From Bdellovibrionota bacterium (GTDB lineage Bacteria > Bdellovibrionota_C > UBA2361 > JBIKUX01), in contig JBIKUX010000010.1 of assembly GCA_044347345.1 (NCBI GenBank), forward strand, positions 1-64,000: 64,000 nt of DNA. The letters are read 5' to 3'. A program made the translations under genes and the position numbers. The notes beneath the pieces were generated by a model. The model did not search any database and was not told where the DNA came from. It saw only the letters and a list, made by a program, of their open reading frames with translations. Positions 59,079 to 62,746 of this stretch are shown piece by piece; the stretch's first letter is position 1; each line of letters begins with the position of its first letter.

Positions 59079-59525
59079 ATGCTTTATTTTAAAATTCGAA
59101 GTTTCTCATTTAAGCGCTCGCCGCTCAGAACTCCGTTTAATAGCGAGAAAAGAGTGGAGGATTTACACGATAAGGAACATGGGGGTGGTTTTGTTTTTGA
59201 CTGTAGGGCGCTACCCAATCCAGGTAGATTACCTAATTTAAGTCATTTATCAGGTTTAGATTCTCCAGTGATAGATTATCTAGCTAACTTATCAGAGGTT
59301 GGAGAATTTATCGAATTGTCCAGTGGGTTAATTATTAGAAGTGCACGTAATTATCTGTCTAGAAATTTCTCCTCCATTTTAGTTGAGTTTGGCTGTACTG
59401 GAGGTCAACATCGTTCAGTATTTTGTGCAGAGAGAGTATCTCAATTTATGAGGAGCTCTTTTGAAAGAACTGCCGCTCAGATTGAAATTCATCATGTTGA
59501 ATTAGGATTAACTAAGGCACTATGA
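59079..59525 (+). CDS. Stand-alone RapZ C-terminal-like domain protein
   Basis: SFSFK, GGGFVFDCRALPNPG, L.GLD..V, FGCTGGQHRSV..AE. Confidence 0.88.
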   Translation: MLYFKIRSFSFKRSPLRTPFNSEKRVEDLHDKEHGGGFVFDCRALPNPGRLPNLSHLSGLDSPVIDYLANLSEVGEFIELSSGLIIRSARNYLSRNFSSILVEFGCTGGQHRSVFCAERVSQFMRSSFERTAAQIEIHHVELGLTKAL

Positions 59526-60292: not shown

Positions 60293-61078
60293 ATGGCACT
60301 TGTTGAATTAGATTGGACAACTTTAGGGGATGGGGTAGCTCTTTTACGATTAAACGATCCGACTCGTCTAAATGCAATGAGCGTAGATATGGCTGAATCT
60401 ATGCGCGAAGTTATAGCCCAGCTATTACTCAAAACAGATTTACGGATGGTAATTCTCACCGGCACTGAAAGAGCGTTTTCGGCTGGTGGAGATATAGAAA
60501 TGTTAGCTAAGCGTTGTGAAGTATCTGCTGAACAGAACCGTATTTTTATGAGGCGTTATTATAATGATTTTCTAGCTTTAAGAACGCTTGGAGTACCCCT
60601 TATTGCCGCTATAAATGGCATTACCGTAGGAGCTGCTTCAGCCCTAGTGTGTGCATGTGATTTACGAATCGCTACAATCACCTCCAGCATGAGCTTTTCA
60701 TTTGTCAGACTTGGTCTTCACCCAGGTATGGGTACAACTTGGTTCTTACCATCTGTTGTAGGGGTAGCTCGAGCCACAGAGCTCTTACTCACAGCTCGGA
60801 CGTTATCGTCTTCTGAGATGATTGAATATGGATTAGTGAGTAAAGTAGTACCCGACCAAGAGCTGATGAATGCTGTTGAGGAATTAGTTTCAGTAATCTT
60901 AAAAGGCGGTACCGAATGTATTAAGCAATTGATATCTACTTTACGAGCTCCTTCATCATGCTTAAATCAAGCCTTAGAAAGAGAGTGCCTTGTACAAGCG
61001 CTTAATTACTCTGGGGCAGAGTTTAAAACACTACTAAAAGAAAAAATAGATAAAAAACCCAGTCTATCCAAAGACTGA
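60293..61078 (+). CDS. Enoyl-CoA hydratase/isomerase family protein
   Basis: P..LNAM, AFSAGGDI, P.IAAING, CDLRIA, F..LGLHPGMG. Confidence 0.92.
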   Translation: MALVELDWTTLGDGVALLRLNDPTRLNAMSVDMAESMREVIAQLLLKTDLRMVILTGTERAFSAGGDIEMLAKRCEVSAEQNRIFMRRYYNDFLALRTLGVPLIAAINGITVGAASALVCACDLRIATITSSMSFSFVRLGLHPGMGTTWFLPSVVGVARATELLLTARTLSSSEMIEYGLVSKVVPDQELMNAVEELVSVILKGGTECIKQLISTLRAPSSCLNQALERECLVQALNYSGAEFKTLLKEKIDKKPSLSKD

Positions 61079-61112
61079 ATATGAGAAACAACTTTGATTA
61101 CTTATCTGAGAG

Positions 61113-61640
61113 TTAAACGTTGCTGAAAGGGATTAAACCTAAGTTTTGAGCTCTTTTTATAGCTTTTGACACTTTTCTTTGGTTGTTTGCTTTCAGCCCA
61201 GTTAACCGCCGTGATAAAATTCGGCCACGTTCACTTACGAATCTTGACAGTACAGCTATGTCTCTATAGTCAACTGGCTTTTCAGGATCTTCAGTAAAAG
61301 GATCGAGTTTTTTCTTGCGACGAAACAACTGCATTCGCTGTATCGGGGGTAAAGGCTCGAATTTTTTTTGAGTACCCTCGGTTCCTCCTTTGCCACGATC
61401 CTCAACTACCTTAATTGGACGACCGTTTAGTATAAACCCGTTTAATTGCTCGCTAACACTACGAGCTGATTCTTCATTTTGCATTTCCACAAAGGCGAAT
61501 CCCTTTGAACGCTTACTATCTCGATCTACTGCTACTACCACGCTTGATGATGGGGCTATTGCGTCTACAGCCTCTCTTAGCTGTTCAGAGGTGACTTCGA
61601 AGTCTAGATTACTAACAAATAGTTTTTTCTTGATAGACAT
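61113..61640 (-). CDS. rpsR: RRM domain fused to ribosomal protein bS18
   Basis: N-terminal RNP2 LFVSNL and RNP1 KGFAFVEM; C-terminal VDYRD...L.RFVSERGRILSRR.TG.....QR.V..AIKRA..LGLIPF. Confidence 0.92.
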   Translation of the reverse strand: MSIKKKLFVSNLDFEVTSEQLREAVDAIAPSSSVVVAVDRDSKRSKGFAFVEMQNEESARSVSEQLNGFILNGRPIKVVEDRGKGGTEGTQKKFEPLPPIQRMQLFRRKKKLDPFTEDPEKPVDYRDIAVLSRFVSERGRILSRRLTGLKANNQRKVSKAIKRAQNLGLIPFSNV

Positions 61641-61771
61641 ATAACTTTTAAATTTTTAATCTCGGGTTGACGTTTAATCGTTCATTCCCCAGTCGTATAA
61701 TGCTTATATCTGACAGCGTCGTGAATGGCAATAAGATGTGACAGCTTTAGAGCAAAAAATAACCAGGGGGT

Positions 61772-62746
61772 TTGGCTAAAATGAATTATGCGAAGACAGA
61801 CTACAAAGACGATATTGAGTTGTGGTGGATGAAGAGTATCCTCCGCATAGCTGGTATCTACAATGTTTTCTTTGGTATTTGGTGTATATTATTTCCTACC
61901 TCGTTTTTTCGATTGAGCGGAATGGAATTGCCGAATTATCCGGAACTTTGGCAATGTATTGGCATGATAGTTGGAGTGTACGGAATAGGTTACTGGATTG
62001 CCGCCAGTGCTCCTCTTCGTCACTGGCCCATTGTTTTAGTAGGGTTAGTCGGCAAAATTCTCGGACCTTTGGGTTTTATTGGAGCTTTAATTTCAGGTCG
62101 TTGGACTCTTTCATCGGTATGGCTGATTGTTACTAATGATTTGGTGTGGTGGTTGCCGTTTGGTGCCATTCTTTGGGGTGTTACTCTGAGAAACATGGAT
62201 CCAGAATTTTTGGGTTTACTCTCAAAAAGCTCTAGAGATGAAGGAAAAAGACAATGGCAGGCGCTAATTAACAAATCCTCTCATAATCCAATTCTTGTGG
62301 TATTTTTAAGGCACTTAGGATGTATTTTTTGTGCTGAAGCTGTTAGCGAGCTTCGTGATATTTTGCCGTCGCTTAATTCGTCTGGAATTTCACTTACCGT
62401 GGTTTCAATGTCAGATGAAAAGAGTATTAAAGAGTATTTAGGTCAAGCTTTTAGTGATAAGAGTACGATGAGTGATATCGAGATTGTTAGCGATCCAACA
62501 ACAGCTCTTTACCGAGAAGTTCAGCTACCCAGAGGGTCTTTTTGGCAACTTTTTGGTTGGTCTTCTGCAGTTCGAGGATTCAGCGCGATGAAGAAAGGTT
62601 TTTTACCTGGTCGTTTATCTGGTGATGGAGCTCAACTTGCTGGGGTATTTTTGCTCAGTAACGGGGCAGTAGTAGCATCTCATCTAACCTCCTATGCTGG
62701 AGAGACCTTACAATTAAAGACTTTTTTACATGATAGCCTTCATTGA
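61772..62746 (+). CDS. Membrane domain + peroxiredoxin-like (AhpC/TSA_2, SelL-related) protein; start may be 61829
   Basis: Four TM segments, then FLRHLGCIFC, SDP...LY, GD..QL.GVF. Confidence 0.82.
   Translation: MAKMNYAKTDYKDDIELWWMKSILRIAGIYNVFFGIWCILFPTSFFRLSGMELPNYPELWQCIGMIVGVYGIGYWIAASAPLRHWPIVLVGLVGKILGPLGFIGALISGRWTLSSVWLIVTNDLVWWLPFGAILWGVTLRNMDPEFLGLLSKSSRDEGKRQWQALINKSSHNPILVVFLRHLGCIFCAEAVSELRDILPSLNSSGISLTVVSMSDEKSIKEYLGQAFSDKSTMSDIEIVSDPTTALYREVQLPRGSFWQLFGWSSAVRGFSAMKKGFLPGRLSGDGAQLAGVFLLSNGAVVASHLTSYAGETLQLKTFLHDSLH

What the first reader, a model, noticed from the sequence alone, without database searches (positions are those of the whole stretch)
61113..61640. RRM RNA-binding domain fused in frame to ribosomal protein bS18
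Seen: one 175-aa ORF with a complete RRM (residues ~5-82), a G/K/P-rich linker and a complete Cys-free bS18 (~107-173), outside the usual rpsF-ssb-rpsR-rplI context. Known: bS18 lies on the 30S platform beside the mRNA exit/anti-SD region; bacterial single-RRM proteins are normally free-standing ssRNA binders, often cold-induced. Inference: an RRM tethered at the platform could recruit specific or SD-poor mRNAs or create specialised ribosomes, as either the only S18 or a swappable paralog. I am not aware of this fusion being described.
Basis: partly seen in the sequence, partly recalled or inferred. Interest (0 to 1): 0.85.

Follow-up and report, generated by a model that had tools for sequence, protein, structure and literature searches.

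The report
RRM-fused ribosomal protein bS18
In this uncultured freshwater bacterium and nearly all its relatives, the only gene for small-subunit ribosomal protein bS18 carries an RNA-binding RRM domain on a flexible leash, so every ribosome probably has a built-in extra RNA-binding module beside the mRNA exit.

Summary
Window 61113-61640 (-) is one 175-aa ORF: a canonical RRM (about residues 5-82), a short low-complexity linker, and a complete Cys-free bS18 including its basic N-terminal tail (about 98-175).

It is the only S18 in this 96%-complete genome. rpsF and rplI sit together on another contig without rpsR.

The fusion is not an artefact. 113 of the 116 genomes of this lineage in which an S18 was found carry it in frame, each with a single S18 match. 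The lineage has 124 genomes, labelled Bdellovibrionota by NCBI titles. None of the outgroup S18 frames listed was long enough to hold it. RNA-library contigs cross the junction without differences.

The RNA-contacting RNP1/RNP2 motifs are conserved clade-wide. The linker varies from 22 to 60 residues.

So it is the sole bS18, not a swappable paralog. The proposed role in recruiting SD-poor mRNAs remains inference. The anti-SD, bS1 and bS21 are all present. SD use is low but within the bacterial range. One lineage that lost the RRM shows no rise in SD use.

Five literature searches found no description, and databases label it plain S18. This scan found the same fusion earlier on another genome (e1-4899572).

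Verdict: a real, lineage-wide, apparently undescribed variant of a core ribosomal protein.

The parts
61113..61640 (-). Whole gene: RRM-linker-bS18, 175 aa plus stop codon (61113-61115)
   Evidence: ORF list; Pfam and NCBIfam; only S18 in the genome; covered end to end, without differences, by RNA-library contigs of runs X10 and X11, and from 61094 to 61628 by X15
61395..61628 (-). RRM domain, residues 5-82
   Evidence: PF00076 at residues 7-77, E 8.9e-18. AF2 pLDDT is about 90 with canonical RRM topology. Foldseek matches to solved RRMs at about 1 A rmsd, including TIA-1 RRM2, HuR, RBM39 RRM2, GR-RBP1 and hnRNP A18
61605..61622 (-). RNP2 motif, residues 7-12 (LFVSNL)
   Evidence: The pattern [LVI][FY][VI]xN[FLI] holds, with one exception (VYVSHL), in the 169 distinct family sequences aligned; F8 and N11 are at least 90% conserved
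61482..61505 (-). RNP1 motif, residues 46-53 (KGFAFVEM)
   Evidence: The pattern [KR]GF[GA]F[VI]E[FMY] holds, with few exceptions, in the 169 sequences; G47 and F48 are invariant and F50 is at least 90% conserved in the 70-sequence alignment A1
61350..61394 (-). Added low-complexity linker, residues 83-97
   Evidence: pLDDT below 50 at residues 85-91. Across the family, the stretch between query positions 82 and 105 is 22-60 residues long and G/P/R/S-rich. Mean identity to the query is 0.16 among class-level members
61281..61349 (-). Native basic N-terminal tail of bS18, residues 98-120 (includes the conserved pre-S18 motif and the RRKKK-DPF stretch)
   Evidence: Aligns to residues 4-23 of solved bS18 chains. 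K111, D113, P114 and F115 are at least 90% conserved. The tail is kept in G049, which lost the RRM
61116..61280 (-). bS18 globular core, residues 121-175
   Evidence: PF01084 at residues 121-170, E 1.8e-22; TIGR00165 equivalog above its cut-off; pLDDT 84-93; nine invariant residues in A1
61057..61080 (-). Terminator-like hairpin followed by a T tract, 33 nt after the stop codon
   Evidence: Consensus scan: 2 terminator-like sites found against 0.6 expected in shuffles, so this is weak evidence. The X15 RNA-library contig ends at 61094
61641..61683 (-). A/U-rich 5' leader without a core SD; RNA-library contigs of X10 and X11 end at 61682/61683
   Evidence: Sequence; contig ends (both runs are from one study, and these are contigs, not reads, so this is only a weak hint of the transcript start)

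Best explanation
The gene encodes this organism's only bS18, made as one chain with an N-terminal RRM.

Shown:
- The S18 part is complete and is the sole copy.
- The RRM keeps its RNA-contacting RNP1/RNP2 residues across the whole lineage.
- The two domains are joined by a flexible connector of variable length.
- The gene stands alone, away from rpsF-rplI, and is present in RNA libraries.

Inferred:
- The S18 part assembles with bS6 on the 30S platform as usual, so essentially every ribosome carries the RRM.
- The RRM hangs from the bS18 N-terminal tail, which in studied ribosomes points into the platform cavity beside the mRNA exit and the anti-SD. It is therefore confined to that neighbourhood.
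- There it most likely binds single-stranded RNA, most probably the A/U-rich 5' leaders of mRNAs as they are recruited or emerge. That would make it a built-in standby or holding site working alongside bS1, in a lineage where SD sequences precede only a minority of genes.
For: Identity and sole copy; exactly one S18 match per genome in the 116 in-clade genomes that have one.

Lineage-wide fusion: 113 of those 116 genomes have the RRM and S18 in one frame. That is 82 order-level and 15 class-level single full-length matches plus G031, and 15 more confirmed in frame by phmmer on fetched loci.

Outgroups: about 68 of the 150 listed rows are genomes of other bacterial families. Their frames around S18 are 69-144 aa, too short to hold the fusion.

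Exhaustive search of 1.84 billion representatives: 10 proteins reach E<=1e-30. I picked the ten hits of 173-218 aa from the 150 listed and scanned them with Pfam. Five carry RRM_1 then S18, all in the same order and of similar size; the other five are double RRMs.

Selection on RNA binding: RNP1/RNP2 are conserved in 169 distinct sequences. G47, F48 and D81 are invariant. RRM identity is 0.40 against 0.16 for the linker at class level.

Fold: AF2 gives two confident domains on a low-confidence connector. The RRM superposes on ssRNA-binding RRMs at about 1 A.

Placement: query residues 101-172 align to residues 4-75 of a solved bS18 chain. Preprint 10.64898/2026.07.03.736309 (passages read) says that the E. 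coli bS18 N-terminus contacts mRNA in initiation and that the chloroplast bS18 N-extension projects into the platform cavity.

Expression and junction: RNA-library contigs of three runs (one study) span the ORF with 0 differences and 0 indels.

Context: a core SD 4-mer lies at -18..-4 in 21.7% of 1699 crude gene calls, against 7.7% in a control window. Only 10 of 55 distinct fusion-gene leaders have one.
Against: There is no direct evidence of ribosome incorporation or of what RNA the RRM binds.

The canonical anti-SD, a full-length bS1 and bS21 are all present, so nothing obvious needs replacing.

SD use is low but not exceptional. The SD excess is 0.14 here and 0.02-0.27 in four in-clade samples, against 0.09-0.62 in eight unrelated genomes, three of which are at or below 0.18. 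The heuristic takes the first ATG and samples about 60-70 genes per outgroup genome.

G049 lost the RRM but kept the tail and S18. Its SD excess is 0.175, no higher than its fused family-mates G050 (0.21) and G051 (0.22). The RRM is therefore dispensable in at least one lineage and is not visibly coupled to SD use.

RNA-library contigs cannot exclude DNA carry-over. The independent DNA run X12 does not bridge 61237-61347.
Confidence: 0.5

Rival explanations
1. The RRM binds ribosomal RNA rather than mRNA. It could bind the 16S 3' tail or anti-SD, modulating its availability as the bS21/bS18/bS6 pocket does in Bacteroidia. Or it could bind platform helices, as a structural or assembly-chaperone add-on like the two RRMs of chloroplast cS22.
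For: cS22 is a precedent: a ribosomal protein whose RRMs bind 16S h6 and h10 (passages of preprint 10.64898/2026.07.03.736309), and it appears among the sequence matches of the RRM (5x8p_v, E 3.6e-12). In Bacteroidia, bS18 itself helps to hold the 16S 3' tail (passages of PMC7797042 and PMC13000457). The clade has a canonical anti-SD yet few SDs. The residues just after beta4 (K77, V78, D81, R82) are at least 90% conserved or invariant, which could be a docking surface.
Against: The 16S gene matches the bacterial model end to end (positions 1-1533 in 1517 bases), so there is no large expansion or loss to compensate. A linker varying from 22 to 60 residues suits a roaming domain better than a fixed dock. 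AF2 shows no packing of the RRM on S18 (pTM 0.45). G049 lost the RRM without a change in SD use, which also argues against anti-SD sequestration by the RRM.
Confidence: 0.25
2. The RRM serves a function off the ribosome. Examples are autoregulation of its own monocistronic mRNA by the free protein, replacing the S6:S18-rpsF leader feedback lost when rpsR left the operon, or a cold-shock-like RNA chaperone activity of a free pool.
For: rpsR has left the rpsF operon here and in 5 of 5 further in-clade genomes examined. No known leader RNA family matched near rpsF or the fusion gene (0 Rfam matches at E<=1). The S6:S18 complex is known to repress rpsF translation in E. coli (PMC4647458, title and start of abstract seen only). 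The closest NCBIfam match of the RRM is the 'RNA-binding regulator' model NF058537 (70.3 bits, below its 100-bit cut-off).
Against: The leaders of the fusion gene show no obvious shared sequence across the 55 distinct upstream regions printed (judged by eye, no structure search made). Sole-copy bS18 is needed stoichiometrically on ribosomes, so most of the protein should be ribosome-bound. There is no positive evidence.
Confidence: 0.1
3. The fused protein is an alternative bS18 paralog, swapped in under some condition to make a specialised subpopulation of ribosomes.
For: bS18 has C+/C- paralog pairs in other bacteria (passage of PMC13000457). This protein lacks Cys, as a C- form does.
Against: There is exactly one PF01084 match in this genome and in each of the 116 in-clade genomes that have any. 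No CxxC motif occurs in any of 169 family sequences.
Confidence: 0.03
4. The fusion is an assembly or annotation artefact: two adjacent genes joined by a sequencing error.
For: In one very fragmented MAG (G087, 800 contigs) the RRM and S18 parts lie in adjacent frames.
Against: 113 of 116 independent genomes carry the same in-frame architecture. Three RNA-library contigs and nine DNA runs hold the stretch, and no indels appear in the runs laid. There are hundreds of database proteins (457 hits; the 120 listed all carry PF00076 and PF01084).
Confidence: 0.01

Closest known systems
Canonical bacterial bS18 (rpsR; PF01084, TIGR00165)
   Same: The C-terminal 78 residues are a complete bS18, including the basic N-terminal tail. 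They score above both curated cut-offs and align to residues 4-75 of solved bS18 chains. It is the sole copy in the genome.
   Different: It carries an N-terminal RRM plus linker (97 extra residues). The gene is monocistronic and separated from rpsF-rplI.
N-terminal extension of chloroplast bS18c (land plants; repeated basic/aromatic heptad motif)
   Same: [quoted passage not shown] Its length also varies between lineages.
   Different: The chloroplast extension is a short disordered repeat of about 19-55 residues, not a folded RNA-binding domain. The organelle setting and the origin differ.
Chloroplast cS22 (PSRP2), a ribosomal protein made of two RRMs
   Same: It places RRM domains as stable parts of a bacterial-type 30S subunit. 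It appears among the sequence matches of this RRM (E 3.6e-12) and among the Atlas structure rows.
   Different: cS22 is a separate protein at the foot of the 30S that binds 16S h6 and h10. It is not fused to a core ribosomal protein, is not at the platform, and is confined to land plants.
bS1 (rpsA), the multi-OB ssRNA-binding protein at the mRNA exit
   Same: This is the proposed working analogy: a flexible ssRNA-binding module on the platform side that holds A/U-rich leaders.
   Different: The fold is unrelated (OB, not RRM). bS1 is a separate, reversibly bound protein, and it is also present, full length, in this genome (634 bits against a 577-bit cut-off).
Free-standing bacterial single-RRM proteins (cyanobacterial Rbp type; NCBIfam NF058537 'RNA-binding regulator')
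   Same: The domain, its size and its RNP motifs are the same. This genome has two further free RRM genes (39% and 30% identity to the RRM part), so a resident gene is a plausible donor.
   Different: The fused RRM scores 70.3 bits against NF058537, below the 100-bit cut-off. It is tethered to a ribosomal protein instead of being free.
Bacteroidia platform pocket (bS21/bS18/bS6) that sequesters the anti-SD
   Same: It is another lineage-specific change of the bS18 neighbourhood tied to low SD use, with a canonical anti-SD retained (PMC7797042 and PMC13000457, passages read).
   Different: There the effect comes from point substitutions in normal-sized proteins, and no extra domain is involved. 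Whether the anti-SD is sequestered here is unknown.

Membership tests
bS18 (TIGR00165 / PF01084) | Score above the curated cut-off, with near-full model coverage | tested here: met
   TIGR00165 77.7 bits against 38.75, model positions 2-68 of 70; PF01084 79.6 bits against 21, positions 3-52 of 52
bS18 (TIGR00165 / PF01084) | Serves as the genome's S18 (no other copy) | tested here: met
   One PF01084 match in the 95.8%-complete genome; one match per genome in the 116 in-clade genomes that have any
bS18 (TIGR00165 / PF01084) | Binds bS6 and the 16S central domain on the 30S platform | not testable with these tools
   Inferred from homology only. bS6 is present.
bS18 (TIGR00165 / PF01084) | Usual operon context rpsF-(ssb/priB)-rpsR-rplI (typical, not strictly defining) | tested here: not met
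   rpsF and rplI are adjacent without rpsR. The same holds in 5 of 5 further in-clade genomes.
RRM_1 (PF00076) | Score above the gathering cut-off | tested here: met
   64.4 bits against 20.7, model positions 1-70 of 70
RRM_1 (PF00076) | RNP2 and RNP1 consensus motifs with aromatic residues on beta1 and beta3 | tested here: met
   LFVSNL at residues 7-12 and KGFAFVEM at 46-53; conserved in 169 sequences. The consensus patterns themselves are recalled knowledge.
RRM_1 (PF00076) | beta1-alpha1-beta2-beta3-alpha2-beta4 fold | tested here: met
   AF2 secondary structure, pLDDT about 90; Foldseek TM up to 0.94 (normalised by target length) and rmsd 0.8-1.6 A to solved RRMs
RRM_1 (PF00076) | Binds single-stranded RNA | not testable with these tools
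   Inferred from the conserved RNP residues
NF058537 Rbp_regulator (free bacterial RRM regulators) | Score above the curated cut-off | tested here: not met
   70.3 bits against a 100-bit cut-off
Zinc-binding (C+) bS18 paralogs | CXXC signature | tested here: not met
   No Cys in this protein; CxxC in 0 of 169 family sequences
cS22 / PSRP2 | Two tandem RRMs in a free-standing protein that binds the 30S foot | tested here: not met
   There is one RRM, fused to S18. The location on the ribosome is not testable.

The most novel reading that the evidence does not exclude
A whole phylum-level bacterial lineage builds a sequence-reading RNA-binding domain into every small ribosomal subunit. The bS18-tethered RRM would recognise leader motifs at the mRNA exit and so form a third, protein-encoded route of mRNA selection beside SD pairing and bS1. 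The Gly/Arg-rich N-terminal extension of bS21 in the same order would then be part of a remodelled mRNA-recruiting platform.
Probability: 0.25. Interest if true: 0.85.

Novelty: new variant of a known kind. Interest (0 to 1): 0.7.

Why it matters
Core bacterial ribosomal proteins rarely gain folded domains. RRMs are common in eukaryotes and rare in bacteria. The only RRM-bearing ribosomal protein I could find in the papers searched is chloroplast cS22, which sits elsewhere on the subunit and is not fused to a core protein.

Here an RRM has been held on bS18, at the site where mRNA leaders and the anti-SD meet, throughout a lineage of 124 species-level genomes. That implies a lasting benefit.

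If the RRM engages mRNA leaders, it is a natural example of a ribosome with built-in transcript recognition. It also bears on how SD-poor bacteria find start sites.

The design is compact and portable: an RRM, a 15-55-residue leash and bS18. It could be tested or reused in model bacteria, and one natural RRM-less relative offers a comparison.

Tried and rejected
- **First attempt to find the S18 frames.** My first pass on fetched loci used hand-made regular expressions and missed most of them. I replaced it with phmmer.
- **Compensation for a missing part.** I asked whether the RRM makes up for a lost initiation component. It does not: the anti-SD, bS21 and bS1 are all present.
- **Known RNA families.** A search around the fusion gene and the rpsF locus gave 0 matches at E<=1.
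- **Conserved neighbours.** The enoyl-CoA hydratase recurs in 7 of 20 loci and the other three neighbours in 0-3 of 20, so there is no operon partner.
- **Promoter scan.** It found no sigma-70-like site on the gene's strand. By eye there is a TTGCCA-17-TATAAG pair at 61731-61703, which fails the scan's rule. I do not rely on it.
- **Junction in independent DNA.** DNA run X12 leaves 61237-61347 uncovered, so it neither supports nor contradicts the junction.
- **Exhaustive representative search.** Its top 150 are dominated by multi-RRM eukaryote-like proteins. It gives a count of fused clusters only among hits strong enough to be listed.
- **Taxonomic reach.** The genome-contig scan used peptide patterns from this protein and so reached only close relatives. 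I could not centre a search on Bdellovibrio or Bacteriovorax, so the state of the nearest sister lineages is not shown.
- **Not run.** I ran no complex prediction, because no specific protein partner is claimed.
- **Papers.** Supplementary files of the papers were not consulted.

Full report
**1. The observation**

Window 61113-61640 (minus strand) is a single 175-aa ORF with an ATG start. Pfam places RRM_1 at residues 7-77 (E 8.9e-18) and Ribosomal_S18 at 121-170 (E 1.8e-22). The NCBIfam S18 equivalog TIGR00165 covers residues 107-173 at 77.7 bits, against a cut-off of 38.75. The protein has no cysteine.

The AF2 model was built on a 70-sequence alignment (A1). It shows a canonical beta-alpha-beta-beta-alpha-beta RRM (residues 5-80, pLDDT about 90), a low-confidence connector (81-120) and an S18 fold (121-175, pLDDT 84-93). 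The pTM of 0.45 indicates two independent domains on a flexible tether. The RRM superposes on solved ssRNA-binding RRMs at about 1 A rmsd, including TIA-1 RRM2, HuR, RBM39 RRM2, a plant glycine-rich RBP and hnRNP A18.

Sequence alignment to solved ribosome chains shows that query residues 101-172 correspond to residues 4-75 of an 81-aa bS18, and 105-173 to residues 4-71 of 75-aa bS18 chains. The canonical protein, including its basic N-terminal tail, therefore begins near residue 98-105. Only about 15-18 residues are true added linker.

**2. It is the only S18, and it has left its operon**

PF01084 matches only this place in the 2.53-Mb, 95.8%-complete genome. rpsF and rplI are adjacent on contig C68, in the order L25-pth-rpsF-rplI, with nothing between them.

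I examined five further genomes of the lineage. In two, rpsF lies about 650 kb from the fused rpsR. In the other three it is on another contig. In all five, rplI follows rpsF and no S18 is present in the locus.

The fusion gene stands alone between a convergent enoyl-CoA hydratase gene and a divergent gene for a membrane/AhpC-TSA_2 protein. Its neighbours are not conserved: the hydratase recurs in 7 of 20 related loci and the others in 0-3 of 20.

**3. Distribution**

NCBI titles of related MAG contigs read Bdellovibrionota, 'Bdellovibrionales' or 'Deltaproteobacteria'. All are uncultured.

The genome tool's 'phylum' scope returned 124 genomes, all labelled same order or same class. Combining with phmmer on fetched loci gives this tally:

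| Genomes | State |
|---|---|
| 82 (order level) | single full-length match |
| 15 (class level) | single full-length match |
| 1 (G031) | both parts in one 258-aa frame |
| 15 (class level) | RRM and S18 matches separated by a longer linker but in one open frame |
| **113 of the 116 with an S18 found** | **fused in frame** |

The three exceptions among the 116:
- **G087:** an 800-contig MAG in which the two parts lie in adjacent frames.
- **G046:** the gene is cut by a contig end.
- **G049:** a 107-aa protein keeps the conserved tail and the S18 but has no RRM. A free RRM gene lies elsewhere in that genome.

In eight genomes (completeness 55-90%) no S18 was found at all.

Every genome with an S18 has exactly one match. 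In the 150 listed rows (of 212 matches), about 68 are genomes of other bacterial families. Their open frames around S18 are 69-144 aa. In-clade frames are 170-268 aa, apart from G049 (110 aa) and G087 (108 aa).

The word-indexed protein search gave 457 hits. The 120 listed all carry PF00076 and PF01084 and, where named, are called S18.

The exhaustive search of 1.84 billion cluster representatives found 10 proteins at E<=1e-30. I picked the ten hits of 173-218 aa from the 150 listed and scanned them with Pfam. Five are RRM_1-then-S18 fusions of 173-203 aa and five are double RRMs. The architecture thus belongs to one small sequence family and one lineage.

I could not centre a search on the cultured Bdellovibrionota classes, so the exact node of origin is open.

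**4. Selection on both halves**

In 169 distinct family sequences, RNP2 keeps the pattern [LVI][FY][VI]xN[FLI] and RNP1 keeps [KR]GF[GA]F[VI]E[FMY], with few exceptions. In alignment A1, G47, F48 and D81 of the RRM and nine residues of S18 are invariant.

Mean identity to the query among the 31 class-level members:

| Region | Identity |
|---|---|
| RRM | 0.40 |
| Linker | 0.16 |
| S18 tail | 0.42 |
| S18 core | 0.57 |

The stretch between query positions 82 and 105 varies from 22 to 60 residues and is G/P/R/S-rich. It is followed by a conserved motif that precedes the basic tail and is retained even in RRM-less G049. No family member has a CxxC motif.

**5. Reads**

The stretch is held by 23 of the 24 listed runs, all from lake or freshwater metagenomes. 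Four of them are metatranscriptomes from one study.

I laid three of the RNA runs and one DNA run:
- X10 and X11 each give a contig covering 60900-61682/61683.
- X15 gives a 535-nt contig covering 61094-61628.
- All three have 0 differences and 0 indels, so the junction is bridged.

These are contigs of RNA libraries, so they show presence and cannot prove strand-specific transcription. DNA run X12 does not cover 61237-61347.

**6. Where the RRM would sit**

Passages of preprint 10.64898/2026.07.03.736309 state three things:
- The E. coli bS18 N-terminus becomes ordered on contacting mRNA in initiation.
- The two RRMs of cS22 bind 16S h6 and h10 at the foot of the subunit.

PMC7797042 and PMC13000457 (passages) show that in Bacteroidia bS21, bS18 and bS6 hold the 16S 3' tail on the platform. 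An RRM on a short leash from the bS18 N-terminal tail is therefore confined to the region where mRNA leaders, the anti-SD, bS21 and bS1 meet. That placement is inference. I could not model it on a 30S.

**7. Tests of the 'SD-poor mRNA' idea**

The 16S 3' end carries the canonical CCUCC. bS21 is present, and so is a full-length bS1 (634 bits against a 577-bit cut-off).

I used a crude gene call (ORFs of at least 150 aa, starting from the first ATG) and counted core SD 4-mers at -18..-4 against a control window at -40..-26. 'Excess' is the SD-window fraction minus the control-window fraction.

| Sample | SD window | Control window | Excess |
|---|---|---|---|
| This genome (1699 genes) | 21.7% | 7.7% | 0.14 |
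| Eight unrelated genomes (100 kb each) | | | 0.09-0.62 (three at or below 0.18) |
| Four in-clade genomes | | | 0.02-0.27 |

There is a clear positional peak at -15 to -8. The lineage is SD-poor but within the bacterial range.

The fusion gene itself mostly lacks an SD (10 of 55 distinct leaders have one).

For the natural experiment, I compared RRM-less G049 (excess 0.175, 257 genes) with its fused family-mates G050 (0.21) and G051 (0.22). There is no increase, so this gives no support for a tight coupling of the RRM to SD-independent initiation. It rests on a single loss event, and the GC contents differ.

**8. Reading**

The structural claim is very well supported: the sole bS18, lineage-wide, with a functional-looking RRM on a flexible tether.

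The mechanism is inferred. I favour a ribosome-resident ssRNA-binding module at the mRNA exit that holds A/U-rich leaders (about 0.5). An rRNA-binding or assembly role comes next (about 0.25), then an off-ribosome regulatory role (about 0.1). A swappable paralog (0.03) and an artefact (0.01) are essentially excluded.

**9. Novelty**

Five full-text searches found no paper describing the fusion. Databases hold the sequences as plain 'S18'.

This scan noted the same fusion earlier on another genome (e1-4899572). Its statements agree with what I tested here independently.

I class it as a new variant of a known kind: a core ribosomal protein with an accreted RNA-binding domain. The nearest analogues are the chloroplast bS18c extension and cS22.

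Noticed in passing
L046:1276-1695 (+) = G000 contig C28: bS21 of this genome is 139 aa. The S21 domain is at residues 76-126, preceded by a Gly/Arg/Asp/Ser-rich (RGG-like) N-terminal extension of about 70 residues. Open frames around bS21 are about 100-195 aa in most genomes of the same order. They are about 66-76 aa in most other orders of the class and about 57-145 aa (mostly 60-90) in outgroups. A second platform protein next to bS18 may thus also carry an RNA-binding-type extension.
   Followed up: partly
L014:1378-1833 (-) and L014:773-1315 (-) = G000 contig C68: bS6 is 151 aa, with the S6 domain at residues 21-111, so it has both N- and C-terminal extensions. bL9 is 180 aa, with a lysine run between its two domains and a charged C-terminal tail.
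   Followed up: no
G049:C117 (L050:1342-1665, +): One class-level genome has a 107-aa S18 that keeps the conserved pre-S18 motif and basic tail but has no RRM. Its family-mates G050 and G051 keep the fusion. This is a probable secondary loss, and it gives a natural comparison.
   Followed up: yes
G040 (single contig, 2.3 Mb, 82% completeness estimate; same order): No S18 was found with PF01084 or with the S18 part of this protein at E<=10, although bS6 is present. This sample also had the lowest SD excess (0.02). It could be a real loss of bS18 or a gap in the assembly; this is unresolved.
   Followed up: partly
window 61380-61392 (-): The linker codons for G-K-G-G spell a strong SD-like AAGGAGGA inside the ORF. 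It lies about 46 nt upstream of the ATG of Met103, where the canonical S18 part begins. That is too far to serve as an SD for Met103. Whether it is conserved or causes a translational pause between the domains was not examined.
   Followed up: no
window 61772-62746 (+): The divergent neighbour encodes a 324-aa protein with a hydrophobic, membrane-like N-terminal half and an AhpC/TSA_2 thioredoxin-like C-terminal domain (residues 194-304).
   Followed up: no
window 59079-59525 (+): A 148-aa ORF matches only the RapZ C-terminal domain (PF22740, E 5e-25), with no N-terminal P-loop part in the same ORF.
   Followed up: no
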